From a virus, in IMG/VR virus record IMGVR_UViG_3300020596_000023, positions 1-64,000 of that record: DNA of 64,000 bases, one strand, 5' to 3'. The translations under genes and the position numbers were made by a program. This document shows positions 4,105 to 64,000 of this stretch, piece by piece. Below the pieces are notes generated by a model. That model was not told where the DNA came from, ran no database searches, and saw nothing but the letters and a program-made list of their open reading frames with translations. Numbering within the stretch: the first letter of the stretch is position 1; every line of letters starts with the position of its first letter.

Positions 4105-4138
4105 GGAATCCAGCAGGCTTCTTCTTTCTACCGGCAAC
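4105..4138 (+). repeat. dispersed motif A copy 1
   Basis: GGAATCCAGCAGGCTTCTTCTTTCTACCGGCAAC. Confidence 0.9.
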
Positions 4139-4140
4139 TG

Positions 4141-4179
4141 AAACAAGCTGTAATTACCTAATTACGGCTTGTTTGTTTT
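4141..4179 (+). terminator. intrinsic terminator
   Basis: AAACAAGCTGTAATTA-CC-TAATTACGGCTTGTTT followed by GTTTT. Confidence 0.7.
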
Positions 4180-4202
4180 ACTTTAACAAAAGCAATTTAA
4201 CA

Positions 4203-4967
4203 ATGAAATATTTAACAGGCGATTCAAGATGGGTTACATTCTGCCCTAAATTTAGCAATTCTCTTTATTTAGATCAAGCTGGTCAGTTTGATGAAAGACC
4301 TCAAATAGTCACTGGCATTACTCAATTATTAGTATTACTGGCTATGCCAGTTCTATTAGTTTATTCAATTTATTATTTGTTTCTAATACCATTTATATTT
4401 TTTGGGTGGGGTGAATTATATATTAGTTTACCAGTTAGAACTGGAATACAAAGTTGGAGTAGTGCTTCTTGGGGATTCACTTATCACAGCAATACTGTAT
4501 GGATATATGTAGGTGGAGATGATCGTGGTAAATCGTGTAAAACCATAAAAATGCCATGGCATTCTTTTTGGGTAAGAACATCTACTAAATTAAAAAATGG
4601 TAATTGGTTTCATGAAACTATAGATAGGGAATTAGATTTTATGAATGAAGATATTATAGCAGTCGGTGGTTATGGTTGGTTAGAAAAAAACAAATATGTT
4701 GAAGTACACCCGTTTTTAGATAAATATAATAATACTACAGTTACTGCAACTGTAAGTATTATTAAAAGGGAGTGGAGATTTTATTGGCCTGTTTTGACAA
4801 AACTGTTTGTTAATAATGTTTTAACTATTATGGTAGAGTTTGATGAAGAGGTAGGTAAAAATAAAGGTTCATGGGAAGGTGGATTTGTAAGTTGTAAGTA
4901 CAAACTTAGAAAAGACGAAAGTGTGTTAAACTGTTTAAAAAGGCTGGAATCAAAACAACCATTTTAA
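4203..4967 (+). CDS. membrane-associated hypothetical protein
   Basis: Probable start MKYLTGD at 4203, since the track start at 4095 runs through a terminator; hydrophobic segment, Trp-rich. Confidence 0.7.
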   Translation: MKYLTGDSRWVTFCPKFSNSLYLDQAGQFDERPQIVTGITQLLVLLAMPVLLVYSIYYLFLIPFIFFGWGELYISLPVRTGIQSWSSASWGFTYHSNTVWIYVGGDDRGKSCKTIKMPWHSFWVRTSTKLKNGNWFHETIDRELDFMNEDIIAVGGYGWLEKNKYVEVHPFLDKYNNTTVTATVSIIKREWRFYWPVLTKLFVNNVLTIMVEFDEEVGKNKGSWEGGFVSCKYKLRKDESVLNCLKRLESKQPF

Positions 4968-4969
4968 TT

Positions 4970-5320
4970 ATGACCATAATAGAAGCTTTTGAATCAAACC
5001 CATATTTACCAAAGTTTATTCAATTTTGTATTGATCTAAATGAAGACATTAGCAGTTTAGATCAAGCTACTAATAGTCATATTTATGGACTGTTAGTACT
5101 ATGGCTGTCTACGGTAAATATCGGTATTAGTTTAACTAATACTGATATAATATCGTATTTCATAAAATCAGAACTACAAAATAAACTTGACATGGATTGT
5201 TTTTTATTTGAAAAACAATCTAGCTTTACTGTAATTAATCGTAAACCAAAATCGGAATTTATGAAAGTACTCATAGATGCCATAACTACACTAAAATATA
5301 TTCAGAATGATGACTTATGA
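4970..5320 (+). CDS. hypothetical protein
   Basis: 116 aa, overlaps the helicase start. Confidence 0.65.
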   Translation: MTIIEAFESNPYLPKFIQFCIDLNEDISSLDQATNSHIYGLLVLWLSTVNIGISLTNTDIISYFIKSELQNKLDMDCFLFEKQSSFTVINRKPKSEFMKVLIDAITTLKYIQNDDL

Positions 5321-6716: not shown

Positions 6717-6740
6717 AACTAAACAATTCCAATTAAGATC

Positions 6741-6776
6741 CTACCTCTAAGTTCCCACTTAGGGGTAGCTTTTTTT
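6741..6776 (+). terminator. intrinsic terminator
   Basis: CTACCTCTAAGT / ACTTAGGGGTAG stem plus T7. Confidence 0.75.
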
Positions 6777-7348: not shown

Positions 7349-7352
7349 TACA

Positions 7353-7892: not shown

Positions 7893-7986
7893 GTGCGTTG
7901 GAGAAATAATTTTATTTCTGCTAACATACAGCTTTGCATAAATGGTGCTTATGGAAATAACTTTATCAACTTAAAACAAAATAACA

Positions 7987-8202
7987 ATGGCACACGAAAA
8001 CTTCAATTTAAACAAAACATCTCTTGACGAAAAGCCTGTAGTAGCTACTGTAGGCTTAACTAAAGAAGAGGTTGATGAATTACAACTCCTTAGATTCTTA
8101 CAAACAAGTAACGAAAGATACCTGAGTACATGGGAGTTTGATAGAATTGCAGAATTGAGTAGAAAAGAGTTTGAAAATGCAGGGTCGACCCATTGCATCT
8201 AA
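7987..8202 (+). CDS. small hypothetical protein (cassette-like)
   Basis: 71 aa; stop TAA lies inside the left end of the next attC-like site. Confidence 0.7.
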   Translation: MAHENFNLNKTSLDEKPVVATVGLTKEEVDELQLLRFLQTSNERYLSTWEFDRIAELSRKEFENAGSTHCI

Positions 8203-8300
8203 TGTTTGTCGGCTTAGCAATGTCTGGTGGCATTGCACAAAGGTTCAAGTTTACAACAAGGCTTATTGCCACCGAATATAGCCAAACCGCTGTTATGTGC
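8195..8300 (+). mobile_element. attC-like recombination site
   Basis: CTAAT-GTTT, arms CGGCTTAGCAATGTCTGGTGGCA / TGCCACCGAATATAGCCAAACCG, then CT-GTTATGT. Confidence 0.55.
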
Positions 8301-8477
8301 TAGGCGGATTATCAGCACTAAATTTAATTTGAAACGAAATGAATGAAGAGCAAGCAATGGATAATCATTTGTTAATGGTCAAAAAGATGAACTATTTGAT
8401 TATGAACGAAAGTTCTCAAAATAACATATAAGTTGTAGCTTTACGTTGGTGGTGTTTCCACCATTAAACTACTAATC

Positions 8478-8927
8478 ATGAAATTCTTAAACAAACCACT
8501 TCTCCTCTTCCAGTTTCTTTTGCTTCCTGTGCTATTAAGCGCACAGGATCCTTACAAGATTACCAATGAAAAAGCCATTGGCTTTGCAGCGATTGCGGCA
8601 GGATCTCTGATGGATGGGATCTTGGAAGGCTATCAGTTCGATGGGCGCAAGTCTTTTGAACGGAAATGGGGATCAGACCCTTATGGGTTTTGGGGTTCAA
8701 AATCATGGCAAGCAACGCATACGTGGTATGCCAAAACCATGGGCGTACCGGACTTTTACCACATGGCAGATGACACGCGAAAAATAGGCTACATCACAGG
8801 AGGTGTCATGATTGGTATTGGAATGAAGGATAATAAAAAATGGTGGCACTATGCTTTGGATATTGGGATTAGCGCTGTCGTAAGTGCTGGAGCAAAACAA
8901 GTAGGACTAATTTGGGTTAGGAATTAA
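8478..8927 (+). CDS. putative exported/membrane protein
   Basis: Signal peptide ending LSA|Q, Gly/Trp-rich amphipathic segments, visibly higher GC than neighbours. Confidence 0.75.
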   Translation: MKFLNKPLLLFQFLLLPVLLSAQDPYKITNEKAIGFAAIAAGSLMDGILEGYQFDGRKSFERKWGSDPYGFWGSKSWQATHTWYAKTMGVPDFYHMADDTRKIGYITGGVMIGIGMKDNKKWWHYALDIGISAVVSAGAKQVGLIWVRN

Positions 8928-8966
8928 CTTCCCTGCACTGAGCTAATCTAAATTAAAATTTTTACT

Positions 8967-9001
8967 ATCGCCGGTAGAAGAAGAAAGTCCTGATAACTTC
9001 C
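8967..9001 (-). repeat. dispersed motif A copy 2
   Basis: Reverse complement GGAAGTTATCAGGACTTTCTTCTTCTACCGGCGAT. Confidence 0.9.
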
Positions 9002-9040
9002 ATCTTCTACCGTTTTTATTTACTTCAAAATAATTTCAAA

Positions 9041-9221: not shown

Positions 9222-11564
9222 ATGACTCTATATCTTCAAAATGAATCTGATCAAACTATACAGCACCTTCATAAGCTCTTCAACGAATCTTATGAAGGTG
9301 TTTTTGTTTGCTTAGACACGGAAACTACAGGCTTAGATGTATTAAAACTAAGGCCATTACTAATGAGCTTAAATAGTAATTATGGTACTATAGTTTTAAA
9401 TCTAGCTAAACTCAGTAAAGACTTTATTAAATCTATATTTAATCAATATGGATTGAATAAAACGTATTTAGCTCACAATGCTAAATACGATGGTAATGTA
9501 ATGTATCACTATTATGGACTGGATTTGGATTGGTATTGCACAATGGTATCAGATCAAAAGCTTTCACAAGGATTAGGTTATTCTGAAAAAGATCGGCCTG
9601 ATGGAGTTAGATATAATTTATCTGATACGGCACAAAGACATCTAAAAGTTCCCGCATTAAATAAAGAGCAGCAATTATCATTTGTAGATTATTTAGGTTC
9701 TGAGTTTAGTGATGCACAGATTGAATATGCTGGTAAAGATGTAGACTATCTATATCCTATTATGAAAAATCAATTATTGTGTGCTGCTCAATTTGGAATA
9801 AAAAATCTACTAACTGAAAGTGAGATTCTGTCAGAAGTTTGTATTGCGGAATGTACTGGTGTTTTAATAGATAGAACTAAATGGATTAATATTGCTGAAC
9901 AAGTATATGCAGAGATTCAGAATATTGCAAAGGAATTAGACCAGATAGTAAAGACTAATAAAGTTCTGATTAAAAAAAGAGGATTTATACCATTGTCTGG
10001 TAATTACGATTTATTTACTGAAACTGATTGGGTAAGAGAGTTCTATCAAAATAAAAGCAGCAAAGCTAAACTAACTGCTTTATTCAATCAAGGAGTTAAT
10101 TGGGCCAGCCCTACACAAGTAACTTTTATTTGTGGCCAGCTAAACTATCCCCTACCTGTTAAAGATGAAGATATTTATTTAGTACCAGATATTAAAGTTA
10201 CTAATAACAAAAGAAAAGTTATAAGTAGTATTAAATATACTACCAAAAAGGACAAGCTAGAAGTAATGCTTCAAAACTTTGAGCATCCTAATAAAGAGTT
10301 TATTGAATTGATATTCAAGTACAACTCGTTACGAACGCTATTTGCAACTTATGGAGGTAAGTGGTTAAATAAGCTGCATAATCATAGAATCTATACTGCT
10401 TTTAGAACTATGTCTGCTGTTACAGGTAGGTTTCAATCAGGTGGTGGTACTAAATTACCTGATAAAATCAATACTCAGAACATTCCAAGTGCCGGAGATT
10501 ATCGGCACTGTTTTGTCGCTGACAAAGGTCACAGCCTAATCACAGCGGATCTTTCCGGAGCAGAAGTAATTATCCTTGCCGATAAAGCGAATGAGCAGAG
10601 TGTGTACGACAGAGCCGTTATTGACGATGATTCTCACAGCCCTGTAGCACAATATACATGGCAACAAATATATTTATTCCGAGCAGGGAAAGAGATGGGA
10701 TTGTGGTACGACGTAGCCAAGTTCAGGCAGGAAAAGGACAATCCTGCTGTCAAAGGATATTTTAGCCAGTATGGTACAATTGAAGCTAAAGAATGCTTTA
10801 GGCTATCTCAAGAACTTATAGTATCTAAAAAAGAGAATAAGCATATTAGAAACAAATTCAAGAGTTCCACATTTGGTGGAATCTATGGAATGGAATTTCG
10901 TAAGTGTGCAGAAACTCTTGGAATAGATTGGGAAGAAGCTAAAGTAGCTTTACAATCCATGAAAGATTGTATGCCTAAATGCTATGAGTATGTAGAATCG
11001 GAAGTTAAGCTTGCCGCTAAACAGGGTTACTCTATACTTAATAAATACGGTGGAAGTAGAATTACTTTTCCTTTAACTCAAGCATTAGTACATCAAAACA
11101 AAAATGCTTATGATAGTATTGATGCAATCAAAGAAGTTAAAGCAGTCCGTAATTATCCTATGCAGGGTACTCAAGCTGATATGATTAAGCTTGCAATAGC
11201 TAACATCAGAAAGCTTAGAAAGATTGGACTTGAAGTAACTCTATTATTACAAGTGCATGACGAACTGGTCTATCAGACACCAGAACAATTTGATGGAGTT
11301 TCAAAAGCTTGGCTAAATAATAAAGCCAATGCTTTTGAATTTACGATAAAGTACGAAAGAGAAGTAAGCTTTGATTCGGCATTAAAATTTTGTGAAAAAT
11401 ACTCAGATCATGTAGTTTCTATTAAAACTCCTGGATTAAGTATTAACTATAAAATCAGTAATGCTTTGACTATTCCAATAATCATGCTGTATTCTGCTGA
11501 TCTATATCTTGAGCGATTTACTATGGGTTCAAGTTTAGAGGTGCAGAAATATTGGCAGAAATAA
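9222..11564 (+). CDS. polA: DNA polymerase family A with 3'-5' exonuclease
   Basis: Exo DTETTG, HNAKYD, YAGKD; TGRF; motif A DLSGAE; motif B RNKFKSSTFGGIYG; NYPMQGTQAD; motif C VHDE. Confidence 0.96.
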   Translation: MTLYLQNESDQTIQHLHKLFNESYEGVFVCLDTETTGLDVLKLRPLLMSLNSNYGTIVLNLAKLSKDFIKSIFNQYGLNKTYLAHNAKYDGNVMYHYYGLDLDWYCTMVSDQKLSQGLGYSEKDRPDGVRYNLSDTAQRHLKVPALNKEQQLSFVDYLGSEFSDAQIEYAGKDVDYLYPIMKNQLLCAAQFGIKNLLTESEILSEVCIAECTGVLIDRTKWINIAEQVYAEIQNIAKELDQIVKTNKVLIKKRGFIPLSGNYDLFTETDWVREFYQNKSSKAKLTALFNQGVNWASPTQVTFICGQLNYPLPVKDEDIYLVPDIKVTNNKRKVISSIKYTTKKDKLEVMLQNFEHPNKEFIELIFKYNSLRTLFATYGGKWLNKLHNHRIYTAFRTMSAVTGRFQSGGGTKLPDKINTQNIPSAGDYRHCFVADKGHSLITADLSGAEVIILADKANEQSVYDRAVIDDDSHSPVAQYTWQQIYLFRAGKEMGLWYDVAKFRQEKDNPAVKGYFSQYGTIEAKECFRLSQELIVSKKENKHIRNKFKSSTFGGIYGMEFRKCAETLGIDWEEAKVALQSMKDCMPKCYEYVESEVKLAAKQGYSILNKYGGSRITFPLTQALVHQNKNAYDSIDAIKEVKAVRNYPMQGTQADMIKLAIANIRKLRKIGLEVTLLLQVHDELVYQTPEQFDGVSKAWLNNKANAFEFTIKYEREVSFDSALKFCEKYSDHVVSIKTPGLSINYKISNALTIPIIMLYSADLYLERFTMGSSLEVQKYWQK

Positions 11565-17921: not shown

Positions 17922-19004
17922 ATGATTCCAAATACAATATATTCTAAGAGCGAACTTAGGAAGTACTTAAAAAAATTAAATATAGATGATATTGATCTGT
18001 ACTCTATTTATACTGGATATACTAGACAAGACATATTAACATCGTTATATAATGGTAAACATCTTCATTCTTTTATGAGGTCTGATTCTACACCATCGTT
18101 AGGATTTTATATAGGTGACAATGGTACTATACGATTCAAAGATTTTGGTGGAGATGGTGGAGATGTTTTTACAGTAGCTAATATACATCATAGAAAAGCT
18201 TTACAAGGTGGATTATTTGTAGAGCTTTTACAAGCTATATACAATGACGTACTAAAGAAAAACAATTATACTGTTTCTAAGGAGCAGATCACATTATTGC
18301 CAAAACAAAAAGTTACTGTAGATGTAGACCTTAGAGATTGGTCTAATTATGATTATCAATATTGGGTTAGAGGTTATGATTTTGACAGTTTAGAAGAAGT
18401 GGAATATTATTCTACTTATGCTGTTGATATAATCTATCTCAATGGTAAGTTCTATAAAAAGTCTTCTCCTAAGTTTCCAATTTATGGCTATTTAGTAACT
18501 ATGCTAAATGGAGACTTCTTTTGGAAATGTTACTTACCAAAACAAACTCCTAAATTTATTACAGGTGGTATAGGATTAGATTTTATGCCTTATGTATTAA
18601 ATGATTTGAAACCAACTGATCCACTAGGATTAATTAAAAGTAGAAAAGATGCTATGGTTGTGTATGACCATATACAAACTTTGTTAGTACCAAATTCTGA
18701 AAATTCTACTGGTATGTCGAAACAAGAATTAGGCTTATTTAAGAATAGAAGAGTTAATACTTATATTGAACAAGATGAAGGAGGTTTGATAGGTATCAGT
18801 CAATTAGAAACAAATTTGGGAAAAACGGTAACTCGCAGGCTTCTCCCTTCTACCGGCGACGGCAACAAACAGATCAACGACTTTGCTGAACTTCGTAAGT
18901 TCTTACGTAAAGATAAATTTAAAGAGTTCTGTCAATGGTATTTTCCACAACCAAAATTAACTTTAACTGAAATTCATAATTTCATAAATAAACTAAAACA
19001 CTAA
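17922..19004 (+). CDS. dnaG: DnaG-type primase (crAss-like)
   Basis: RSDSTPS, FKDFG, KSRKDAM, PNSE, variant TOPRIM EQDEGG, NDFAE. Confidence 0.8.
   Translation: MIPNTIYSKSELRKYLKKLNIDDIDLYSIYTGYTRQDILTSLYNGKHLHSFMRSDSTPSLGFYIGDNGTIRFKDFGGDGGDVFTVANIHHRKALQGGLFVELLQAIYNDVLKKNNYTVSKEQITLLPKQKVTVDVDLRDWSNYDYQYWVRGYDFDSLEEVEYYSTYAVDIIYLNGKFYKKSSPKFPIYGYLVTMLNGDFFWKCYLPKQTPKFITGGIGLDFMPYVLNDLKPTDPLGLIKSRKDAMVVYDHIQTLLVPNSENSTGMSKQELGLFKNRRVNTYIEQDEGGLIGISQLETNLGKTVTRRLLPSTGDGNKQINDFAELRKFLRKDKFKEFCQWYFPQPKLTLTEIHNFINKLKH
18827..18860 (+). repeat. dispersed motif A copy 3
   Basis: GGTAACTCGCAGGCTTCTCCCTTCTACCGGCGAC inside the primase gene. Confidence 0.9.
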
Positions 19005-26061: not shown

Positions 26062-26096
26062 GTTGCCGGTAGAAGAGGAAAACCCTGCTAGATTCC
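26062..26096 (-). repeat. dispersed motif A copy 4
   Basis: Reverse complement GGAATCTAGCAGGGTTTTCCTCTTCTACCGGCAAC. Confidence 0.9.
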
Positions 26097-26129
26097 ATTC
26101 TTACCCAATTCTTACCCAATTCTTACCTA
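26097..26129. repeat. 11-bp tandem repeat x3
   Basis: ATTCTTACCCA ATTCTTACCCA ATTCTTACCTA. Confidence 0.85.
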
Positions 26130-37100: not shown

Positions 37101-40100
37101 TTTTAGCTAAAGTTAATTTGAACTGGTTTTTCAAAGTAGGAACTTCACCAGATTCAATCATTTCTGGAGTTATAGCAGATTTATATTTATCTCCATAAGC
37201 TTTAATAAATCTCATAGAAATTAATCCACCATATTGAATATATTTAAGTTGTTCGTCTGGCTTGAATATCGCAAAAGCATCTGGCAAAGCTTGACCTGTA
37301 GGAGCTTTAGAGAATCTGAGTATGTCTTGGTTTGGATAATTCATTTTAGCAGAGTTTTTAAAATCACCTCTACTAGCACTTTCAAACAGTAAATCAATAC
37401 GATCAATTTTACCAAAGTAAGTTTGAAGCATTCTATATAATTTCTCAAAAAATGCTTTTACCTTACGAGAGAATCCTTGTGGTTCTTTGCCAACTTGTTT
37501 AGTCAGCATAAAGCCTCTAAACTTCTCAGCTAAAAATTCTTCTACTCTAAGTTTGGAATCTTCTGTCAGTAAATCTTCTTCTAGTCCATATCTTTTATTA
37601 GCTTCTTCTAACAAATTCAATCTATCTGATTCATTCAAATACATATTGAATATAGCATGGAAAGCTTCGTGGTACTCAGTACCAACTATACTATATTTAG
37701 ATAGAGTTACAGCAGCTTTTCTAAATACTCCATAAACTACATCACCATTATCCATTAATTGTTCTGGTAATATTTCAATAGGAATTTCGTCACCTAGTAT
37801 ATTCTGGAAGTTTTCAATTTGAGATTGATTAGACTCAATTAATTCGTCTTTAGTAGAATTAGTAGAAGCTTTGAAGAATAATGCATCTGTGAGCAAATCA
37901 GTTAAATCTGAATCAGTAGAATCTTGAATAGAATTAGGATCAATTGAAGTGATAGCATCAACTTGAGAAAGATCGGAATTAACCGGGCTTTCCTCTTCTA
38001 CCGGCAATGGGTTAAGAACTGTATCACTGACTTTATCTTTCCTAACGTTCTTAGCTTCACTAACTTCCGTCTTACTCTCATCACTCCAAGTTTTTAATAC
38101 AACTCGAGTATTAACATTATCAACGCCATTATTAGCAGCAATCTTACCACCAAATAAAGACAGTATATTACCCTCAGAATCTTCTGTAGTTTTTATATTA
38201 ATTCCAAACCTATCACTATTCAAGATGCTATCATGAAGTTCTTGTTCACGACCATCTTCCAAATATAAGTTGTACCTTTTTCCAGACAGTACATCTTTAA
38301 GAGTGTCAGAAAATACTTCTCTATTAGCGTCATTTAGAACTAATATGTCTTTACCATTTATAGGAATCTTATTTCCAACATTGCTGTTATATTCCTCATA
38401 AGATTCGTACTTAGTTTTCTTACCAGTCCAAACCCTTTTAGTTAATCTGATCTCATCATTAGGAGCTACATAGATTGTGTACAACTCTGTATAATCTCCA
38501 TTTAATATTTCTATTCGACCTTTACTATTAGCATTTGGACCATGAACTAAAAACGTAGGAGCATATAGGTTATCTTTGGCATCTCGAACATTTGATCTAA
38601 ACAGAGTTATCCTATTAATAGCTTTTTTTATCTCAATCATTGAATCATCTTTAAAAGGACTTAACCCAGTCTTTAATCCTTTTATAAGTTGATTTAGTAA
38701 TTTAATAACGTCTGTAATTGACTCAGAATCTAATTTGTTACCGCTTATATATAATGGTATAGCAGTTTGAGTATCGTCATAGTCGGTAAAATCTATTGAC
38801 AAATTGGGGCTAGCTGGAACTAATACAAAAACATTACTTGAACTGTACAACATATCTTCATTGTACGTGGCACTAATGGACTTAGTGTCGTAGGCTTGAC
38901 CCTCACCGATGAGTGGGGATAATGTAGAGCTTACAACAGAACCGCCATCTTCGGGAATGTGGTACAGCCGTACAGACATAGCTTTGGCAATCCTGGACAA
39001 TAGAGAAAGCTGATTATTCCCAGTTTTTTTCCTTGCACCAGCAGATACTTTCTTTAATAAAATTTTACTATTTTTGTTTTTAGCAAAAGCAGTTCTAATT
39101 TTTACAGTCTCTAATAAGTTAACTCTACGAGCTAACGCAGCGTTTGAATTACCATCGGATTCAAGTCTGTTTATTTCTTTCTCAATAGAACTAACTCTAT
39201 TGATATAACCAATCAAAACATTTTTATAATAAACACCTATTGGAGCTTCGTTAGGGTCAGTTGATTTGAAGTTATCTTCGACTTCGGGTATTTTCAAATC
39301 AAGCTCAACTTGACCATCTTTTTTAATAATCTCTCTAAGCTCGTTAAGAGCTTTTACAGTTTTAGCATCGTTATCAGATATAACGATAGTTGTATCAGTC
39401 TCAGATACTATATCTGGATTGACTATACTATGCAAGTAAATACTTGCAAATTGGCTTTCATCTGATCTTTCCTGAGCTATTGAATCTTGTTCAGTTATAG
39501 CTTTGATAGGTTCTTGTTCTGTATTAGTATCAGTATTGTAAACTGGAACAAGTTCAGCAACTGTGTTTACTGTATCTAACTCTAATACAATCTCATCTGG
39601 AATATTATCTACAACTGGAACTTCCAGATTAATTGATTCATGTTCAGAGTTTAATTCAGTTGCAATAATTTCTCCAACTGTTGTAGTTGTTTCAGACTCT
39701 ATGACTTGTTGTACAATAGCAGAATTATCTTGAGTATCTTCAGATAACTCCTGAACAGTTAGTTCAAGTTGTACAGCAGATTTAACTGATTTAGTAGCTC
39801 TGGATTTTCTGGTTTTTTTAAAATTAGATTTAACGGATTTGGTAGCTCTGGATTTTCTGGTTTTTTTAGGATTAGCTATAACAGAGTTAAGATCAATTAT
39901 AATAGCTTGATTTTCTTCAATTGGTTTAATTAGTTCAATTGATTTATTTGCTTCATCAGAAACAATAGTTTCATCAGAAGCAATAGTTTCATCAGAAGCA
40001 ATAGTTTCAGAATCAGTAATAGTACTAATAATGTCATTTTCTAAATCAGTAGTATCAGCAATAGAACTCAAACTATCTTCTTCTGGATCAACTAACGTAA

Positions 40101-44904: not shown

Positions 44905-46488
44905 TTACATTACTTTAGGTAAGTATTTAGAAAGAATACCACTAAGACCATTTGTAGGATCAGTTTGTGGAGTATTTGTACTATAACTAGAATTACTAGT
45001 AATTCCAGTTTTCTTATACTTTTGCAAGACAGTTTCAAATGGGATACCGGCTTCTAAGTCTTGCATTGCTTGTATAATATTACTACGTTCCAATACACCA
45101 GTATCAGCATATTTAGTTAATTCAATAAGCATAGTTTGCCTATCTCTAATAGCCATGTTTTTATCTCTCTCACCCATCCTCAAATCTTCTGTAAGATTAG
45201 CAGCATTAGCACTAACTCTAGTAACAATATCATCCTTCTGTTGCATCTGCATTAACTTATTTTGATTGATCAAACTAGTATTTGCAACTCTATTCTGATA
45301 TTCTGCTTGGAGGCTTTGATTAACTAAAGCATTCTCCTGATTAACTTTATCTGTAGTTAATTGATTTTTCATACCAATACTTTGACCTCGCAATTGACCA
45401 AGTCTTGCAGCTAATACGGAACTACCAGAAGTATTACCAGTAATAACATTACCATAGTTCTGTTCTGAATTATTTACGTTAGCAATCATACCACTATTAT
45501 CATATTTGGTACGAAGCTTAGGAGCTTGAGTTAGAACTGGATCAGGCACTTGTACTGACCTATTAGTTAATAACAGATTAGTTATGTTATCTACAAATGG
45601 AGATACTTTATTCAAGTCTAATCCAAATTTACCTTTAGGCATTTGTTGTTGCATCATTGCTTCTGCTTCTTGTTGAGCAGCTTGTTTCATCTGCTCTTGT
45701 GTATTGAACAATTCAATCATCGGATTTTCAGAAACTTTTTGAGCATTCCTGAAACCTTTATTTCTTTGCACGTAAGTTTTACCTTTTTTGCTATCAGTGT
45801 CAGCTTGAGTTCTAACCATTTCTTCTGATTCAAACTTGTTAGACTCTAATAACTCTTTTGCAAGATCCGCAAAAGTTTTATTAGTACCGGGAACAGCCAT
45901 ACTATTAGAAAATACCTTACCTTTATAAATAACTTCACCACCTTCCACTTCTGCCTTCATTCCTTTATTCATAAGAATTACACCAGTATTACCATCTTTA
46001 TTAGAATCTTCTTCGTGAGTATCACCTACAACTTTTATACCATTTGAATTTAGCTTCTTCAAATATCCACTGGAAATAGCAATAGGTTTAGCATCACCCA
46101 TATCACCACCATAATTGTAATACCCTTTAACGCCTAAACCCTTTGTAGGATAGTTTCTCATGATTTCAGCACTACGATCTTGCTCTATAAGCATTTCCTG
46201 TTGTTTTTGTAACTTCCGTTGTTCTTCTGCCTCTTTCTTGGCTTTAAGTGCATCAATCAAGCCTTTGCCAAGACCCAAAACTCCACCCGCTATTGAACCT
46301 ACTGGGCCAAAAGAACTGCCAGCAGTAAAGCCCTGTAAGCCCTCCGATAGTGCTGATGTGGCTACTCCTAAACCTGAATTGTTCTCGTCTTGAACCCTAC
46401 TATTTTGAGTAGAAAGCAATTGACTTAGAACCATACTTAATGATCCTAAGTCTCCACCATAGTTATACTTAACAATCTTTTTCATCAT
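44905..46488 (-). CDS. virion cargo protein with Gly-rich hydrophobic segment
   Basis: GPVGSIAGGVLGLG, YNYGG twice, GDTHEE, AEVEGGEVI. Confidence 0.75.
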   Translation of the reverse strand: MMKKIVKYNYGGDLGSLSMVLSQLLSTQNSRVQDENNSGLGVATSALSEGLQGFTAGSSFGPVGSIAGGVLGLGKGLIDALKAKKEAEEQRKLQKQQEMLIEQDRSAEIMRNYPTKGLGVKGYYNYGGDMGDAKPIAISSGYLKKLNSNGIKVVGDTHEEDSNKDGNTGVILMNKGMKAEVEGGEVIYKGKVFSNSMAVPGTNKTFADLAKELLESNKFESEEMVRTQADTDSKKGKTYVQRNKGFRNAQKVSENPMIELFNTQEQMKQAAQQEAEAMMQQQMPKGKFGLDLNKVSPFVDNITNLLLTNRSVQVPDPVLTQAPKLRTKYDNSGMIANVNNSEQNYGNVITGNTSGSSVLAARLGQLRGQSIGMKNQLTTDKVNQENALVNQSLQAEYQNRVANTSLINQNKLMQMQQKDDIVTRVSANAANLTEDLRMGERDKNMAIRDRQTMLIELTKYADTGVLERSNIIQAMQDLEAGIPFETVLQKYKKTGITSNSSYSTNTPQTDPTNGLSGILSKYLPKVM

Positions 46489-49400
46489 TAAATGTTTTTA
46501 AATCTAGTACCAGCAATACTAGGCTTTATGTCCAAACCAACTTCGATTATAGTCATCTCAATAAAGTTTGCATTAGTTATAACCAATCTAACTATGATAT
46601 TATTAGATAAAAATGGTCTAATATTCATAACCTTACTAGCATTTAAATTTGCAGTATTAGGTTCGTCAGTAGCTAACAAAACTGCATTATCAGGATTAAT
46701 TACAGTATCTCTGAATTTACCAAATATCCAACCATCACCCCTTTTAGCTAAGTTAGTATTGCCAATACCCGGCAAGTTAGTAACTCTACTTAATTGAATT
46801 AAACCACTACTTTGATTCTGATTGTAAACCATTATTTGATTAATAGTATTAGTATGACTAATGTCTTTATCAGAGAAAGCTTCTGTTAACCAACTTATAT
46901 TAGCTATCACCAAACTCTGTTCTGTATTAGATAGGCTAATATCAATGTAGCTGTTATAACTAAAACCATAGTAGTAACCTCTTAAATTTGGATTCAAATT
47001 GTGTGCCCACAATCCAAACAGTACAGTAGAAGGATTATTATAAATAGCTCTTAAACCTCTAATGCTAAACATATAAACAGTGGGAAAACAATCATGCTTA
47101 CATACCCATTCTTGTCTAGCTAAATCGTAGCTATAAGTATGACCAGCATTGACTTCCTTACCATCGCTAGCTACAGTTGTTATAAACAATCTATGAAAGT
47201 CTTTGTCATAACCAACTGTAACTCCTGAACCATTAAAAGGATTATCTAAGTAACTTACAACTCTCTTAAAAATAGTTTCAAACTCCCATCTGATAGCATT
47301 AGTCAATTCTTCTAATTGACCATTAAATAAATAAAATCTACCAGTAGTAGCATCAAAGAAAACAACTCCATTAGGACATACTATACAACTCCATTTACTT
47401 TTACTACCACTAAAAGCTCCATCACTTTCAATAACAGGTTTAGGCTTTTGTAAAAATAAGTCTGCACCATATAAAGCTACAGCACTATCACCAGTCTCAA
47501 GAACTTCCTGTGGATCAAAATAGTAAGTACCATATTCAGTAGTTACAAACAATCCATTATTATAACTTCTGACATTAGTAACTACACCAGTATTACGCTC
47601 CATTTCGGAATAGTCGTTAGCTCTAAATGTTCTGAATCGAATCATTGTAGATTCATCAGCTTGAACTAAGCTTCTAGCTATTCGATATGGAAACTTACTG
47701 ATAGTATCGGTGGAACAAGTAGTATCTTCCGCACACCCCTTTTTGACAAATCGCCGGTAGAAGGAGAAAGCCTGTAATTTACTGTAATCACCGTTGTATC
47801 CGTAGTAGTTGCCATGCCTTAAATATTCGATCTCATCAAATGGTGTTTCTACAGGTACAACATATTGATGTAGCATACTCTTAGGATAAAACTTTTCCCA
47901 ATCTTCTGTACCTTCCTGTCTTAGCCAAAGATTGGCAACATCATAAGCAGGTACAGTATATAATGCACCTACATAAGGATTAATCAATCCACTAGGAGTT
48001 GGCATTACATTGTGAAGCTTAAAACTATATTGAGCTATAACACAATCTCCTCCATGAACAAATCCTACTTCTAATGATGGTAAGAACGTAGTACCAGTAA
48101 AAATCAATTCTTGGCTATAATAATTATTATACAAGTCAGGTCTATAACTATAAAGGCTAGCCATTAATAAACCATGATCTGTATTAATCATAGTATTATC
48201 AAAGTCAACTTTTAAAGTTTCTTCACCTAACAAATTAGAATCAGGATCACCACTAATTAAAACATTCTCAGGATAATACTGAGTATTAGTAATCTTTCTG
48301 ATTGCTTCATAATCATTATCATCTATAGTATCTTGGAGCATTCTATAATATGATAAAGCCCCATTAATAAAACTATGATCTGCTTCAACCCCTGGACTAG
48401 TTTCAGGAATACTTATCTTAAAATGAGTCTTTAGATAATTAGCTGTAATAGTAGGAGTAGTATTTAATAAACTAAAATTGTGAAACCTAAAGCTTTCAGC
48501 ATGTTCTACAGCAGTATGACTTAATGGAAGAGCAACAGGATCAACACTGTTATACTCTTTGTTACTGATATAACCTAAAGCAATGTGACTACTATTAGTA
48601 AAGTCTCTTTGAGCATAAAAGATACCCCAATAACAAATCTGAGATTTCAGTTCATTTGGAATAATTACATTACTTATGTCCAACCTTAAAACTCTAGTAC
48701 ATAATCCATCAAGATCAACAATAGCTCCATCAAAAAATACATCATTGCCAAACCGTCTTTTGATATGTTCAAGACTTGGAGTCTTATGGTGTCTTACGTT
48801 TTCTCCTGCAAAGTCTGGAAAACAATCTGGATAAGTCTCAGTAGCATTCTCCCAATAACCCATAGTTCCATCAGCCTTAGAAGTATCAAAGACTTGAAAG
48901 AACTTAACCGCATTTCCTAAATCATTTGCAAGTTCCATTTGAGATAAATGAACAGCAGGATTAGCAGCAATAATATTTGCTAATAACGCTGTCTCATCTA
49001 AACCAGTTAAGTTAGTACTAGGTCTTGATAGAAGATCAAAATCATTTTCAGCAGAAGTATTTTCCCAATCTGTAGTGCTTGCAACTCTACCGGGAATATG
49101 TAGTATGTTCCATACTCCTTTATGAGTATAGAATCCTATGTACATTGCATAGACTTCATCGGGAAAAAAGCCTTGTAAACTTACTTGACGATTAGGGTCT
49201 TTATAACTTTCATCAGGTAAATCAGATTCAATTCCAATTGGAAATTCGTAATTCCAGTTAATTATAACAGCGTTAGCAATCTCTTGCAAGCTTTCAGGAT
49301 CAATACTATCTTCTGTAAGATTTCCTAAATACAATCTCTTATCAAGTATTGTACCAGTTTCTGCTTTGGTATATTTAGCATTTACTCCTAAAACTTCTTC

Positions 49401-50336
49401 AATACTTATAACTGAATCAACTTGACCAGTTACAATATATTCCATGCTACTAGAAATTATATCAATTTCTAATTCTGTAAAAGCTGATACAACTCCTCCA
49501 CCTGTTCTAACTACACCTACAACTAATTTAGGGTAGTTAGTATCTATGTTAGTAAATACTAGTCTTATACTTTTACCAGTCCTGATAGTGTCTATTGTAG
49601 CATCAGAGCCTTCAAAATCAATTATGGTATAATTATCACCTGATACATACGGGTTAGTTTCAGTCGAAAGATGAGAGTCAATTAAAGCCTCATAGATGTT
49701 AATCGTAGTAGCTGTTATAAATGGATCAGTTCTACTACCATCAATACTTTCATATTGAGTAAATACCGAATAGTTGCCAGTTAATAATTGACCTCCGGAA
49801 TTTCTAATTGTCACCGAACTTATCTGAGGTGGGCATGTGTCTGGAATCAATTCTAACAAATTTATGTTAGCTTCATCCACAATAAATTTAGTTGTAGGAT
49901 CAACTTCAAATGGTAAGCAATCTAAATTTATTGATCTTATATTATTAGCATTAGATGTAACACCTTCCCACCACACTAAAATCAAATCACCTTTAAAATT
50001 ATATTCATATACTCCTTGAATTGGAGTAGTTACTGTAAATATTAAAGTAATCGATTTTAGAACATCAGTCCTAATATTATTCTTAACTCTACTAATTGTG
50101 CTAACAGATTCAAAAACACCTGACACTAATTCAATGTTGACTGAAAATAAAATATCTTCTATAGGTGTTGATATAAACCCTGTAGAAGCTCCAACTTTAT
50201 TAGTACCAATTTGTAAAGTACCCGGTTCATTAGTTTTGCCAGTTTGATATTTATTTACTATATTTCTGGCTTTAACTAAACTACCTATAGGTCTTTCAGA
50301 TTTATTAGTACTTGTTATAAGACCGATAGGTTTCAT
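46488..50336 (-). CDS. tail stabilisation/muzzle protein
   Basis: 1282 aa, beta-rich; RLYLGNL, FFPDEVYAMYI, MGYWEN, VRHHKTP; position after ring proteins. Confidence 0.8.
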   Translation of the reverse strand: MKPIGLITSTNKSERPIGSLVKARNIVNKYQTGKTNEPGTLQIGTNKVGASTGFISTPIEDILFSVNIELVSGVFESVSTISRVKNNIRTDVLKSITLIFTVTTPIQGVYEYNFKGDLILVWWEGVTSNANNIRSINLDCLPFEVDPTTKFIVDEANINLLELIPDTCPPQISSVTIRNSGGQLLTGNYSVFTQYESIDGSRTDPFITATTINIYEALIDSHLSTETNPYVSGDNYTIIDFEGSDATIDTIRTGKSIRLVFTNIDTNYPKLVVGVVRTGGGVVSAFTELEIDIISSSMEYIVTGQVDSVISIEEVLGVNAKYTKAETGTILDKRLYLGNLTEDSIDPESLQEIANAVIINWNYEFPIGIESDLPDESYKDPNRQVSLQGFFPDEVYAMYIGFYTHKGVWNILHIPGRVASTTDWENTSAENDFDLLSRPSTNLTGLDETALLANIIAANPAVHLSQMELANDLGNAVKFFQVFDTSKADGTMGYWENATETYPDCFPDFAGENVRHHKTPSLEHIKRRFGNDVFFDGAIVDLDGLCTRVLRLDISNVIIPNELKSQICYWGIFYAQRDFTNSSHIALGYISNKEYNSVDPVALPLSHTAVEHAESFRFHNFSLLNTTPTITANYLKTHFKISIPETSPGVEADHSFINGALSYYRMLQDTIDDNDYEAIRKITNTQYYPENVLISGDPDSNLLGEETLKVDFDNTMINTDHGLLMASLYSYRPDLYNNYYSQELIFTGTTFLPSLEVGFVHGGDCVIAQYSFKLHNVMPTPSGLINPYVGALYTVPAYDVANLWLRQEGTEDWEKFYPKSMLHQYVVPVETPFDEIEYLRHGNYYGYNGDYSKLQAFSFYRRFVKKGCAEDTTCSTDTISKFPYRIARSLVQADESTMIRFRTFRANDYSEMERNTGVVTNVRSYNNGLFVTTEYGTYYFDPQEVLETGDSAVALYGADLFLQKPKPVIESDGAFSGSKSKWSCIVCPNGVVFFDATTGRFYLFNGQLEELTNAIRWEFETIFKRVVSYLDNPFNGSGVTVGYDKDFHRLFITTVASDGKEVNAGHTYSYDLARQEWVCKHDCFPTVYMFSIRGLRAIYNNPSTVLFGLWAHNLNPNLRGYYYGFSYNSYIDISLSNTEQSLVIANISWLTEAFSDKDISHTNTINQIMVYNQNQSSGLIQLSRVTNLPGIGNTNLAKRGDGWIFGKFRDTVINPDNAVLLATDEPNTANLNASKVMNIRPFLSNNIIVRLVITNANFIEMTIIEVGLDIKPSIAGTRFKNI
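47750..47783 (-). repeat. dispersed motif A copy 6
   Basis: Reverse complement AGTAAATTACAGGCTTTCTCCTTCTACCGGCGAT inside the muzzle gene. Confidence 0.9.
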
Positions 50337-61349: not shown

Positions 61350-61388
61350 TACTATTAAGTTTATTTTAGTTTTTAAAATCAGTCTCTA

Positions 61389-62891
61389 CTAATAACCGAA
61401 TGCGGTATAATCTGGTTGGAACTGAACTGACCAAGTGTCATTAAACATAACCAAACCTTGAGTGCATAAGAAGTGAACACTTGTACGATCTGTACCAGTA
61501 GCAAGCTGCAAGTATTCTCCATTACCCTTGTAATTCAAGAACCCTGTCTTACTTACATCTGCCATACCTTGTTCCAAGCCTTTAACTTCACCACGACCAG
61601 CTTCCGACAACAATTGTAAGTTGCTTTGACCATCATAGTCAGAAGCATCTACAATGTAGGCTTCATAACTTGCAAGACTACGACCACTTACAGGGTGAAT
61701 TGGAGCAGCATCAGCATAACCAGACTTATTCAAAAATTCCAATGGAACCAATACATAAGTAGGGCCATCAATATGCTTGTAAGCTTGAATGTAGTTACCC
61801 AAAGTCAAACGACCTTGCACTTCACTCAAGAAGTCTTTACTAGTATTAGCAGATACTAATTGGAAGATTCGAGAATCAACCATAGCATTATGCCATTCCT
61901 CAGCAAAACCACCACCACAGAAAATTGGAATAGTTTGATTGCCATCATCAGGCTTACCACGGAAAGTTGCACCAAGAATCCTATTGATATAAGATTCCGT
62001 CAAAGTTGAGTAAGTCAATGATTGTGTAATCTGCTGCTTCAAACCGGGAGCAGAAGGAACATAATCATTACTGTAATCATCAAACAAGTGAGTTGTACCG
62101 TCAGCAGCATAGCTATATTCAGACAAGAACAATTCCATGTGTTTGTCTTTCTTAAATTCCAACCATTGCTGGAACTCATACCAAGACAACCAGTAGTTAC
62201 TGTTATTACCCATAGTATCAACAAAGTTAAATTCTACCACTTTGTTGGCAATGTTACCTGCCATGTGATAAGACTTACGCAATGTGTTGATACAGCCCTT
62301 CCGACGACCCGGAGTTTGAACATGTCCGTAGTTGCCAATAGAATTAGCAACACTAACTTTACCCGGACCGACTTGACCCCAAATTGCATTAGGTAAAGTA
62401 TCACGATACGGAATAGTAGCACCTGGTCTAATTGCCATCAATCGGTAACGATACCGACTTTCACTAATACGTTTTGGTGTATCTTGTACACGACAAATTA
62501 CACCTGATGGAGAACGAACAGAAGTTTCATAGATAAACCAATCGGTTTTGAAATCCAGAATAACTTCCATACCACCACCAATAGTATCGGATGAGGCGTA
62601 ACTAGAAGCAGCTACAGCCTCAGTTTCTTTCATAGCACCAATAACCGGATACTCAAAGAAATGATTGTGTACTTCTGCTTTACCAATTCTACCACCACCT
62701 TCTAGCATTGCTAAGAGAGGAAACATTTTAGAACTATCATTCCAATTTCCCATCAACTTAGTAATGACTGGCCTCAACAAGTCTGGTTGAGACATATAAG
62801 CAGAAGTCAGGTTATTAACTGAGGTAAACTTATCTGTATTGATTCCCTCAGCATGTACCGTGATCCTACTATGCAGATCATTTGCTGCCAT
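61389..62891 (-). CDS. major capsid protein
   Basis: 500 aa; LRKSYHMAGN, SAPGLKQQI, CGGG, YKHIDG, IHPVSG, crAss-like MCP patterns. Confidence 0.88.
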   Translation of the reverse strand: MAANDLHSRITVHAEGINTDKFTSVNNLTSAYMSQPDLLRPVITKLMGNWNDSSKMFPLLAMLEGGGRIGKAEVHNHFFEYPVIGAMKETEAVAASSYASSDTIGGGMEVILDFKTDWFIYETSVRSPSGVICRVQDTPKRISESRYRYRLMAIRPGATIPYRDTLPNAIWGQVGPGKVSVANSIGNYGHVQTPGRRKGCINTLRKSYHMAGNIANKVVEFNFVDTMGNNSNYWLSWYEFQQWLEFKKDKHMELFLSEYSYAADGTTHLFDDYSNDYVPSAPGLKQQITQSLTYSTLTESYINRILGATFRGKPDDGNQTIPIFCGGGFAEEWHNAMVDSRIFQLVSANTSKDFLSEVQGRLTLGNYIQAYKHIDGPTYVLVPLEFLNKSGYADAAPIHPVSGRSLASYEAYIVDASDYDGQSNLQLLSEAGRGEVKGLEQGMADVSKTGFLNYKGNGEYLQLATGTDRTSVHFLCTQGLVMFNDTWSVQFQPDYTAFGY

Positions 62892-62924
62892 ACAATAAAA
62901 ATTAAATTAGGTTATAGAATACTT

Positions 62925-64000
62925 TTAAAATACCAATTTAGATACATCAGCTTTTACTTCAACCCCACCATTTCCAGTATTTATTCTTTGTGTTGGTGGT
63001 GCAGTAGTTTGTTTAGTTATAATAGCTTTAACTGTACGTCTTGTAGTATCAGAAGTAGCTTTTACTAAAAGCTTATTAAAATCAGCTAATTTAATTTTAC
63101 CAGTACTAACTGCATACCTTAGATATTTCTCAGCAAGGAAATGCTCATCAGTCATAACTTTACTAAACTTAGCTTCTTCTGTTTCACCATTTTTAGGTTC
63201 GGCTAAAAACTTATAAAAATTAGTAGCATCGGAAGCTTCCAGTTTAAATCCGTTCAAATCCAAACTATTTATCTTAGATTCAACTTTACCCCAATAAGCC
63301 TTACGATCTGCTAATTCTTTAGATTGTTGTATACTAGCTTTTTCAACCTTCAATTGATCTTGCTCTTGATAGAACTTAGTCAAAGACTCTTTAGCAGTTT
63401 TATAATAGTCTGAAAGCTGTTCGGTGTCTCTCAAAGCCGTATAGATGCTCTCAGGGTCTTTCACATGAGCGACATTGGTAAGGAAATGTAGCACTACAGA
63501 CTTGGTTTGATCTGCTGATGGTGTTTCTGATATGCTTCCAAAATCAATCCTGTCATTATTATTACGAGCCAAAAATTGATCCACTGTGCCGCCACCTATT
63601 AGATGTAGGATAAGATCAGAAGCTATTGGGTTGTCTTTACCTAAGTCTTCAATAGTTGCTAAGGTTTGAGCTTGGCCAACCTTTGTGACAATATCAATTA
63701 AAGATTCAGCCGAACCGTTAAAAAACAAGCTTCTCTCTTCTACCGGCAATAGTGAAAGAACAGGTTCAAGTCGTTCTTGCACTATTTTGTTTAAAATAAT
63801 ATGATCTACATTTACATCTTCATTTAAACCAACTTCACCAGTCTCTTCATTAAAACTAAATTCTTCTTTCTTTGCAATAAGAAAGTCTTTACCATCTCGT
63901 TGTACAAACAAGTTACCATCTGCACCAATTATGTAAGGTAATTCATCAGTAGTACTAGTTTCTCCAGTAGTCTCAAGACTATCAGAAGTATCGGTACTAT
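62925..64000 (-). CDS. putative scaffold-like protein upstream of MCP (probably 5'-truncated by the window)
   Basis: Acidic helical ORF; frame appears to stay open to the window edge. Confidence 0.6.
   Translation of the reverse strand, partial: STDTSDSLETTGETSTTDELPYIIGADGNLFVQRDGKDFLIAKKEEFSFNEETGEVGLNEDVNVDHIILNKIVQERLEPVLSLLPVEERSLFFNGSAESLIDIVTKVGQAQTLATIEDLGKDNPIASDLILHLIGGGTVDQFLARNNNDRIDFGSISETPSADQTKSVVLHFLTNVAHVKDPESIYTALRDTEQLSDYYKTAKESLTKFYQEQDQLKVEKASIQQSKELADRKAYWGKVESKINSLDLNGFKLEASDATNFYKFLAEPKNGETEEAKFSKVMTDEHFLAEKYLRYAVSTGKIKLADFNKLLVKATSDTTRRTVKAIITKQTTAPPTQRINTGNGGVEVKADVSKLVF
63717..63750 (+). repeat. dispersed motif A copy 7
   Basis: GTTAAAAAACAAGCTTCTCTCTTCTACCGGCAAT inside the gene (antisense). 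Confidence 0.9.

What the first reader, a model, noticed from the sequence alone, without database searches (positions are those of the whole stretch)
4126..63747. Motif A copies alternate strictly in orientation and their spacing grows steadily
Seen: order is + - + - + - + (1 in 64 if random). Core-to-core gaps are 4844, 9878, 7217, 11931, 9757 and 15985 bp. Convergent pairs grow 4.8, 7.2, 9.8 kb and divergent pairs grow 9.9, 11.9, 16.0 kb. Same-strand periods rise monotonically: 14.7, 17.1, 19.1, 21.7, 25.7 kb. Inference (speculative): a geometric ruler, such as anchor points on concentric DNA layers in the capsid, staged ejection stops, or loop/inversion boundaries. Only seven points, found by eye.
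Basis: partly seen in the sequence, partly recalled or inferred. Interest (0 to 1): 0.85.

Follow-up and report, generated by a model that had tools for sequence, protein, structure and literature searches.

The report
Evenly spaced strand-specific crAss-phage DNA signal
Seven copies of a 35-base DNA word in this crAss-like phage alternate between strands because this phage group spaces such words evenly along each strand separately, even through genes; what reads them is unknown.

Summary
A 35-nt word (aCGGnA-N7-cAGGCTTyyCyCTTCTACCGGCrA) occurs exactly 7 times in the 73,196-bp record, at the stated places, in the order + - + - + - +. It lies in intergenic DNA and in four ORFs, sense and antisense, in three reading frames, so it is a DNA-level signal.

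The phage is a distant crAss-like phage. Nine of ten other Crassvirales genomes examined carry their own dialect (pyrimidine tract, then TAC-N-GG or similar). These include the prototype crAssphage and crAss001; phi14:2 has none.

Over 204 sites in 10 genomes:
- Sites ignore gene direction (80 sense, 65 antisense, 59 intergenic).
- Each strand's series is evenly spaced (18 series, Fisher P about 1e-24).
- Neighbours under 1.5 kb apart are on opposite strands in 51 of 51 cases. Neighbours 4 kb or more apart are not biased (38 opposite, 46 same).

Two interleaved even series give strict alternation of 7 sites in about 28-44% of simulations, against 1.6% at random. Alternation is therefore a by-product. 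The steady growth of spacing is not reproduced in any of 9 other genomes.

I found no support for capsid layers, ejection stops or inversions. The function is unknown; my best guess is a strand-specific enzyme entry site (priming or nicking).

This scan has reported the same signal before on other crAss-like DNA. I found no published description.

The parts
4103..4137 (+). Motif A copy 1. It is intergenic, between ORF 3348-3827 and the Acb3-like ORF 4203-4967, and is followed by a terminator-like hairpin.
   Evidence: PWM 49.0
8968..9002 (-). Motif A copy 2. It is intergenic, upstream of the PolA gene (9222-11564), and antisense to the flanking + strand genes. It abuts a strain-variable region that ends at 8937.
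   Evidence: (PWM 46.5)
8982..9016 (+). Weak partial inverted copy (TCTTCTACCG). With copy 2 it forms the only stable hairpin among the seven sites.
   Evidence: PWM 9.5, just above the threshold of 9.2; z = -3.35
18825..18859 (+). Motif A copy 3. It lies inside the primase-like ORF 17922-19004, sense strand, and reads ...GKTVTRRLLPSTGD...
   Evidence: PWM 56.1. The 35-nt block is unchanged in strain contigs L141 and L142.
26063..26097 (-). Motif A copy 4, in the convergent intergenic region between the + gene block (ends 25814) and the - gene block (starts 26199).
   Evidence: PWM 43.5
37973..38007 (+). Motif A copy 5. It lies inside the 3770-aa RNA-polymerase-like ORF 31165-42477 (- strand), antisense, and encodes PLPVEEESPVNSD in an acidic linker.
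   Evidence: PWM 58.6
47751..47785 (-). Motif A copy 6. It lies inside the 1282-aa virion-protein ORF 46488-50336 (- strand), sense, in a different frame from copy 3.
   Evidence: PWM 43.4
63715..63749 (+). Motif A copy 7. It lies inside ORF 62925-63911 (- strand; the frame stays open to 64106 on the whole record), antisense, just upstream of the major capsid gene 61389-62891. It encodes LLPVEERS in the same frame as copy 5.
   Evidence: PWM 47.4. The block is exact in strain contig L102.

Best explanation
Motif A is this phage's dialect of a DNA-level, strand-specific signal shared by most crAss-like phages. The shared form is a pyrimidine tract followed by TAC-N-GG or a close variant. Here it is lengthened to 35 nt by an upstream CGGnA element.

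Shown:
- Selection writes the signal through genes in any frame and either sense.
- Selection keeps the copies on each strand well apart and fairly even.
- Because both strands carry series of similar period, the copies interleave. That interleaving is why they alternate here.

Inferred:
- The apparent steady growth of spacing in this record is most likely chance or a local density effect.
- A phage-encoded protein reads the word on one strand at a time, and the word evolves together with that protein.
- Most likely the word marks where an enzyme enters or acts on that strand. One possibility is the start of a primer whose purine-rich RNA pairs with the pyrimidine tract. The other is a programmed nick of the kind known in T5, phiKMV-like phages and tf.

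My odds:
- About 0.85 that it is a member of the family-wide, per-strand-spaced signal and that alternation is a by-product.
- About 0.35 that the act is priming or nicking.
For: Motif and copies.

Three reading frames, sense, antisense and intergenic.

CrAss-like identity: major capsid protein 25-28% identical to gut crAss phages, and the same two-block layout as phi14:2.

Dialects in relatives:
- G001 CTATTACTGGGAAAG, 23 sites.
- G002 CTTCTACAGGGA, 10 sites.
- G003 TTTTACAGGGAGAA, 16 sites.
- G004 TTAGTACRGGCGA, 20-21 sites.
- crAss001 CTTCTGGAG, 29 sites.
- cr8_1 TTTTACGGGG, 29 sites.
- Rudgehvirus TCCTYTACAGGGGA, 29 sites.
- Prototype crAssphage ATCCTCYACGGGG, 32-33 sites.
- cr127_1, a 35-nt word with the same upstream CGGAA element, 9-10 sites.

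Independence from genes: 80 sense, 65 antisense and 59 intergenic of 204 sites. Of 56 intergenic sites that have a gene downstream, that gene runs the same way in 31 and the opposite way in 25.

Spacing: for 18 strand series, Fisher P(CV) = 1.7e-24 and P(minimum gap) = 2e-22. There is residual evenness beyond a hard exclusion zone, P = 0.003.

Neighbours: under 1.5 kb, 51 opposite and 0 same. Under 4 kb, 94 opposite and 16 same. At 4 kb or more, 38 opposite and 46 same.

Simulation: independent even series with CV 0.4-0.6 give 68-78% opposite neighbours; the observed figure is 132 of 194, 68%. The chance of strict alternation of 7 sites is 1.6% at random and 28-44% at CV 0.35-0.25.

The pooled composition profile shows only a 10-nt pyrimidine tract and a G-rich core, with nothing conserved beyond +-20 nt.

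Precedent for gene-independent, lineage-variable nick words: tf 5'-TACT/RTGMC-3' and phiKMV-like 5'-CGACxxxxxCCTA/CTCCGG-3' (passages of PMC3517423); WACTRTGAC (passages of PMC11780129).
Against: - With only 4 and 3 sites per strand, this record's own spacing is not significant alone (CV P = 0.06 and 0.12).
- G002 has 9 of 10 sites on one strand, so two similar series are not universal.
- Most of the evenness can be reproduced by a simple same-strand exclusion zone. The residual P is only 0.003 under a conservative null.
- Known nick words lie on one strand only, whereas here both strands carry sites. Opposite-strand pairs 11-250 bp apart (22 pairs) would make nicked DNA fragile.
- Six of 7 copies here form no hairpin better than shuffles, unlike classical single-strand initiation signals.
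- There is no step in GC or AT skew at 189 sites (t = 1.08 and -0.08).
- phi14:2 has a primase but no such word.
One of its grounds, few copies in crAss001, is weakened by the crAss001 dialect found here.
- No physical or expression data could be obtained.
Confidence: 0.6

Rival explanations
1. The copies would be anchor points on successive DNA layers in the capsid, or staged ejection stops, so spacing changes steadily from one genome end to the other.
For: In this record both gap series rise. Sites are evenly spread in all relatives. [quoted passage not shown] From recall only, T5's major nicks also spread out from one end. In the prototype crAssphage, one strand shows growing gaps (ring test P = 0.010).
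Against: Pooled gaps show no monotonic trend in any of 9 other genomes, even allowing for unknown termini (P 0.45-0.99; rho -0.29 to +0.28). Only 1 of 15 per-strand series reaches P = 0.01 or below. A capsid or ejection ruler should not care which strand carries the word, yet the rule is per strand, and opposite-strand sites can lie 11-250 bp apart.
Confidence: 0.07
2. A plain double-strand binding site for a phage DNA-binding protein, such as an HU/IHF-like or nucleoid-organising protein. Orientation would be irrelevant. Close same-strand copies would be missing only because direct repeats promote deletions.
For: Most of the evenness is reproduced by a same-strand exclusion zone. Orientation is random for neighbours 4 kb or more apart (38 opposite, 46 same). 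HU/IHF-like genes are annotated in crAss001 and phi14:2. Six of 7 copies here have no single-strand structure.
Against: The exclusion zone (minimum same-strand gaps of 1.5-14.7 kb) is far wider than expected for slippage or annealing between 9-20-nt repeats; this is inference. There is residual evenness beyond exclusion (P = 0.003). phi14:2 has an IHF gene but no word.
Confidence: 0.15
3. Promoters or other transcription signals of the giant phage RNA polymerase, giving both sense and antisense transcripts.
For: Some dialects end in ...TACAGGGAGA, which recalls the start region of T7-type promoters (resemblance from recall). The phi14:2 virion polymerase transcribes single-stranded DNA only (passages of 10.1101/2020.03.07.982082). 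Several gut dialects can form a small pyrimidine/G-run hairpin with a TAC loop on the motif strand only (my reading of the sequences).
Against: There is no orientation bias with respect to genes: 80 sense against 65 antisense, and for intergenic sites 31 with the downstream gene in the same direction against 25 opposite. Early phi14:2 transcripts share no upstream motif, and middle promoters are sigma70-like. phi14:2 has the polymerase but no word. There is no Rfam match in the window.
Confidence: 0.1
4. Boundaries of invertible or recombining segments, that is, site-specific recombinase sites in inverted orientation.
For: Neighbouring copies are inverted relative to each other. Homology between strains breaks about 30 nt from copy 2.
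Against: Inversion between copies 5 and 6, or between 6 and 7, would cut essential ORFs. Non-neighbouring copies are direct repeats. Contigs of 4 runs crossing copies 3, 4 and 5 show no strand-changing joints, though contigs drop rare variants. No recombinase family appeared among the 30 ORFs scanned.
Confidence: 0.03

Closest known systems
Dispersed pyrimidine-tract/TAC/G-run word of crAss-like phages
   Same: It has the same architecture (pyrimidine tract, TAC-N-GG). It lies on both strands, is written through genes, and is spaced per strand. Each phage has its own dialect.
   Different: This phage has the lowest density seen: 7 sites in 73 kb, with same-strand gaps of 15-26 kb against 5-9 kb in most relatives. 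Its word is long and bipartite (35 nt) with an upstream CGGnA element, which it shares only with cr127_1.
Localized single-strand interruption (nick) words of T5, phiKMV-like phages and tf / LUZ24-like phages
   Same: They are genome-wide and gene-independent, with lineage-specific variants of one consensus. tf's TACT/RTGMC and phiKMV's CCTA/CTCCGG resemble the TAC-N-GG core. tf nicks crowd towards one end.
   Different: Known nick words lie on one strand only; here the split is 4 + and 3 -. Nicks were not testable here. This word is 35 nt against 9-19 nt.
Single-strand initiation (priming) signals: phage G4 complementary-strand origin, RSF1010 ssiA/ssiB
   Same: They are strand-specific signals that can sit face to face on opposite strands. 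A per-strand need for regular starts would explain even spacing.
   Different: Those signals are hairpins. Six of 7 copies here fold no better than shuffles. There are many sites rather than one or two, and priming is untested.
Polar chromosomal words (Chi, KOPS; recalled)
   Same: They are short oriented words kept by selection throughout a genome, including inside genes.
   Different: Those are 5-8 nt, host-defined and co-oriented with replication arms. This word is 35 nt, private to the phage and interleaved on both strands. It is absent as a repeat from 185,579 species genomes, with 20 single hits at chance level.

Membership tests
Crassvirales per-strand-spaced DNA word | Pyrimidine tract followed by a TAC-N-GG-type core | tested here: met
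   All 7 copies read yyCyCTTC-TAC-C-GGC-rA. The pooled profile of 203 sites in 10 genomes shows 76% pyrimidine in the 10 nt upstream, followed by a G-rich core.
Crassvirales per-strand-spaced DNA word | Copies on both strands, independent of gene direction and reading frame | tested here: met
   3 intergenic, 2 sense and 2 antisense copies, in three frames.
Crassvirales per-strand-spaced DNA word | Same-strand copies evenly spaced and never close together | tested here: inconclusive
   + strand gaps are 14.7, 19.1 and 25.7 kb (CV 0.23, P = 0.06; minimum gap P = 0.024). - strand gaps are 17.1 and 21.7 kb (P = 0.12 and 0.16). This is consistent with the rule, but there are too few sites. The rule is strongly met in relatives.
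Crassvirales per-strand-spaced DNA word | Relatives carry their own dialect of the word | tested here: met
   9 of 10 other Crassvirales genomes examined have one; phi14:2 has none.
Phage localized-nick words (T5, phiKMV-like, tf) | All sites on one DNA strand | tested here: not met
   4 sites on + and 3 on -. Among relatives only G002 is one-sided, with 9 of 10.
Phage localized-nick words (T5, phiKMV-like, tf) | A physical ligatable nick at the word in virion DNA | not testable with these tools
   All 19 runs that hold this DNA are kept as assembled contigs, with no raw reads.
Single-strand initiation (priming) signals | Stable hairpin in the single strand | tested here: not met
   Folded as DNA, only copy 2 beats shuffles (z = -3.35), and it does so through its weak inverted partner. 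The other six have z from -1.30 to +0.98.
Site-specific inversion systems | Both orientations of the bounded segment present in the population, with a recombinase gene nearby | tested here: inconclusive
   No strand-changing joint appears in contigs of 4 runs over 18.5-38.4 kb, but contigs drop rare variants. No recombinase family was found among 30 ORFs scanned; not all ORFs were scanned.
Promoters of phage RNA polymerases | Sites upstream of genes and co-oriented with them | tested here: not met
   4 of 7 copies are inside ORFs, and copy 2 is antisense to its neighbours. Pooled over 10 genomes: 80 sense against 65 antisense; intergenic, 31 co-oriented against 25 opposite.

The most novel reading that the evidence does not exclude
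Most crAss-like phages, including the most abundant human-gut virus, would carry a private strand-by-strand address system. A phage enzyme would start or cut one DNA strand at a written word every 5-25 kb on each strand separately. This would be a mode of replication or genome processing not described for any phage. This record would be its sparsest, longest-word form. Its widening gaps would then be a real polarity from one genome end, like the crowding of nicks at one end of the tf genome.
Probability: 0.25. Interest if true: 0.85.

Novelty: new variant of a known kind. Interest (0 to 1): 0.6.

Why it matters
Crassvirales include the most abundant viruses of the human gut, yet how they replicate, package and protect their DNA is largely unknown. 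A word that selection writes through essential genes and spaces evenly on each strand implies a strand-reading step that nobody has described. Cultured members carry their own dialect (crAss001 with CTTCTGGAG), so that step is directly testable. For this finding in particular, the striking alternation now has a simple explanation, and the 'growing ruler' idea can be set aside unless a complete genome revives it.

Tried and rejected
- Structured RNA or tRNA remnant: Rfam gave 0 matches and ARAGORN found 0 genes in the window.
- Protein motif: rejected, because the word is read in three frames and on both senses.
- Same word in other viral contigs: the pattern GCTTNNNNYTTCTACCGGC gave 94 stretches, each of the 80 listed with a single match, no more than chance would give. 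No second phage with several copies turned up.
- Closer relatives: single-protein scans with PolA found none in viral contigs. In metagenome contigs they found only three 98-99% identical strain contigs. The nearest whole genomes share about 40% capsid identity.
- Link to polymerase type: PolA is present in G000-G004 and crAss001 and absent from six other records. However, the PolA-less phages cr8_1, Rudgehvirus, the prototype crAssphage and cr127_1 also carry a word, so this idea was dropped.
- Host-derived repeat: the 20-nt pattern gave 20 single hits in unrelated taxa among 185,579 species genomes, against about 17 expected by my arithmetic.
- Replication-type skew step at sites: none found.
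- Strain conservation: the blocks of copies 2, 3 and 7 are intact in strain contigs. At 1-2% divergence this has little power.
- Read evidence: only contigs were available. Laying 4 runs on 18.5-38.4 kb showed no pile-ups of ends and no strand-changing joints. The few 'skip' joints have short sides (21-43 letters) and none lies at a copy. This cannot show or exclude nicks or rare inversions.
- Literature: searches for the crAss001 word in either orientation together with 'crAss' found nothing relevant. Neither did searches on crAss-like with nicks (40), with over-represented motifs (69), with crAss001 promoters or hairpins (73), or with primase, origin and repeats (75).
- Not run: structure prediction, complex prediction and the protein atlas. 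No candidate reader protein was identified.


Full report
**What is there.** Reading the seven implied positions recovers one word. On the motif strand it reads aCGGnA-N7-cAGGCTTyyCyCTTCTACCGGCrA, about 35 nt, and aligns without gaps. The core TCTACCGGC occurs exactly seven times in the whole 73,196-bp record, of which the window is bases 1-64000: 4127+, 8970-, 18849+, 26065-, 37997+, 47753-, 63739+. The 13-nt core with up to 2 mismatches gives 10 matches against 1.08 expected, and 0 of 100 shuffles reach 10. A PWM scan adds only a weak partial copy at 9008+, which pairs with copy 2, and nothing between 63.8 and 73.2 kb.

**Context.** Genes run on the + strand from 150 to 25814 and on the - strand from 26199 to the end. 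The record encodes:
- a family A DNA polymerase, helicases and a primase-like protein;
- a crAss-type major capsid protein;
- a 3770-aa ORF in the position of the giant RNA polymerase.

The capsid protein is 25-28% identical to those of gut crAss phages, and the layout matches phi14:2. The window has no Rfam family and no tRNA. Copies 1, 2 and 4 are intergenic. Copy 3 lies in the primase-like ORF (sense), copy 5 in the polymerase ORF (antisense), copy 6 in a 1282-aa virion-protein ORF (sense, another frame) and copy 7 in the ORF next to the capsid gene (antisense). One word read in three frames and on both senses is a nucleic-acid signal, not a peptide motif.

**Relatives.**
- No close relative exists in the collections. 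Only 98-100% identical strain contigs were found.
- Four near-complete IMG/VR genomes with about 29-42% capsid identity were fetched whole. None has this word.
- Simple k-mer counting shows that each has its own multi-copy word of the same build: CTATTACTGGGAAAG, CTTCTACAGGGA, TTTTACAGGGAGAA and TTAGTACRGGCGA.
- The same holds for crAss001 (CTTCTGGAG, 29 sites), cr8_1, Rudgehvirus jaberico, the prototype crAssphage and cr127_1.
- phi14:2 has none.
- cr127_1 has few sites and a 35-nt bipartite word that shares the upstream CGGAA element with this phage.
- An idea that the word goes with family A polymerases failed.

**The rule behind the pattern.** Pooling 204 sites in 10 genomes gives the following.
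- Sites ignore gene direction: 80 sense, 65 antisense, 59 intergenic. Intergenic sites are not co-oriented with the downstream gene (31 against 25).
- Each strand's series is regular. For 18 series, Fisher P = 1.7e-24 for the coefficient of variation and 2e-22 for the minimum gap. Same-strand sites are never closer than 1.5 kb.
- Opposite-strand sites can be very close: 22 pairs under 250 bp against 6.7 expected.
- As a result, neighbours under 1.5 kb apart are on opposite strands in 51 of 51 cases, and under 4 kb in 94 of 110. At 4 kb or more the split is 38 to 46.
- Overall, 132 of 194 neighbours are opposite (P = 5.5e-7).

Simulating two independent even series with CV 0.4-0.6 gives 68-78% opposite neighbours. 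It raises the chance of strict alternation among seven sites from 1.6% (random) to 28-44% at the CVs near those seen in this record. Alternation here is thus an expected by-product of per-strand spacing and needs no coupling between strands.

Honesty requires two caveats. This record's own series are too short to be significant alone. Most of the evenness in relatives can be mimicked by a hard same-strand exclusion zone, with only a modest residual (P = 0.003 under a conservative null).

**Growth of spacing.** In this record the odd and the even gaps both rise. That has a chance of 1 in 36 and was found after looking. In nine other genomes pooled gaps show no trend (Spearman -0.29 to +0.28). 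A test on the closed ring of gaps, maximised over all rotations to allow for unknown termini, gives P 0.45-0.99. Per strand, 1 of 15 series reaches P = 0.01 (the prototype crAssphage + strand). I therefore treat the growth as chance or a local density effect. I note that crowding of nicks towards one end is documented for tf, and recalled for T5. The predicted next copy near 75.7 kb lies beyond the record. A sub-threshold candidate sits at 69,536-.

**What it does.** The evidence fits a signal that is read on DNA, one strand at a time, by something that evolves with the phage. Each lineage has its own dialect. The word of this phage is not a repeated element in any of 185,579 species genomes.

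Readings the evidence argues against:
- Promoters are disfavoured by the lack of orientation bias and by the phi14:2 data.
- Inversion sites are disfavoured because inversion would cut essential ORFs and no strand-changing joints appear in contigs of four runs.
- A capsid or ejection ruler does not explain why the rule is per strand.

The closest documented things are the nick words of T5, phiKMV-like phages and tf/LUZ24-like phages. These are gene-independent and lineage-variable, and their cores resemble TAC-N-GG. But they lie on one strand only, and close opposite-strand pairs would be hazardous if nicked.

A priming signal would explain a per-strand need for regular sites. It would also explain the anatomy, since a purine-rich primer on the pyrimidine tract would be stable. 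However, six of the seven copies here are not hairpins, there is no skew step at sites, and phi14:2 has a primase but no word. I put priming or nicking together at about 0.35, a plain binding site with direct-repeat avoidance at 0.15, and transcription signals at 0.10.

**Prior knowledge.** Earlier notes of this scan describe the same evenly spaced, strand-specific word in other crAss-like phages and also found no publication. My literature searches found none either. One of those notes records that a later check priced the primase reading low, partly because crAss001 has few copies of the gut word. Here crAss001 turns out to have a different word that obeys the same spacing rule, which weakens that ground.

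**Verdict.** This record is the sparsest, longest-word member seen so far of an apparently undescribed Crassvirales DNA signal.

Noticed in passing
window 7983-8937: Three strain contigs (98-99% identical elsewhere) all lose homology to the window exactly left of 8937. That point is about 30 nt beyond the 3' end of motif copy 2. The stretch holding ORF 8478-8927 is replaced by other DNA in them, so a strain-variable cassette region abuts a motif copy.
   Followed up: partly
window 4203-4967 (+): This ORF matches Pfam Acb3 (CBASS inhibitor), E = 1.3e-21, and is a likely anti-defence gene.
   Followed up: no
window 39778-39873: Two tandem 48-nt units, 92% identical, lie inside the 3770-aa polymerase-like ORF (family D7).
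   Followed up: no
MH675552 (crAss001), whole record; L146-L148: CTTCTGGAG occurs 29 times against 1.8 expected, and the PWM scan likewise finds 29 sites. They lie on both strands, evenly spaced per strand, and 7 of 7 close neighbours are on opposite strands. This is a cultured phage in which the signal could be tested.
   Followed up: yes
MT774393 (cr127_1); L154-L158: A 35-nt bipartite word TTTCGGAAC..CCTCYCGCCCTTGTGGCCAT occurs at 9-10 sites with wide same-strand gaps (7.8-17.5 kb). It shares the upstream CGGAA element with this window's motif. The two phages with the longest words also have the fewest sites.
   Followed up: partly
G004:C1:2385-2425 (L137): Two copies of that phage's word overlap head to head (11 nt apart) and form a perfect palindrome. 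Such back-to-back pairs under 250 bp are over-represented across the family: 22 against 6.7 expected, 14 divergent and 8 convergent.
   Followed up: partly
window 69536 (- strand, outside the 64-kb window, on the record): A degenerate motif-like site, GCTTCTATTATAGTTTACCGGCAG, scores below the PWM threshold. It is a possible decayed or weak - strand copy, 5.8 kb beyond copy 7.
   Followed up: no
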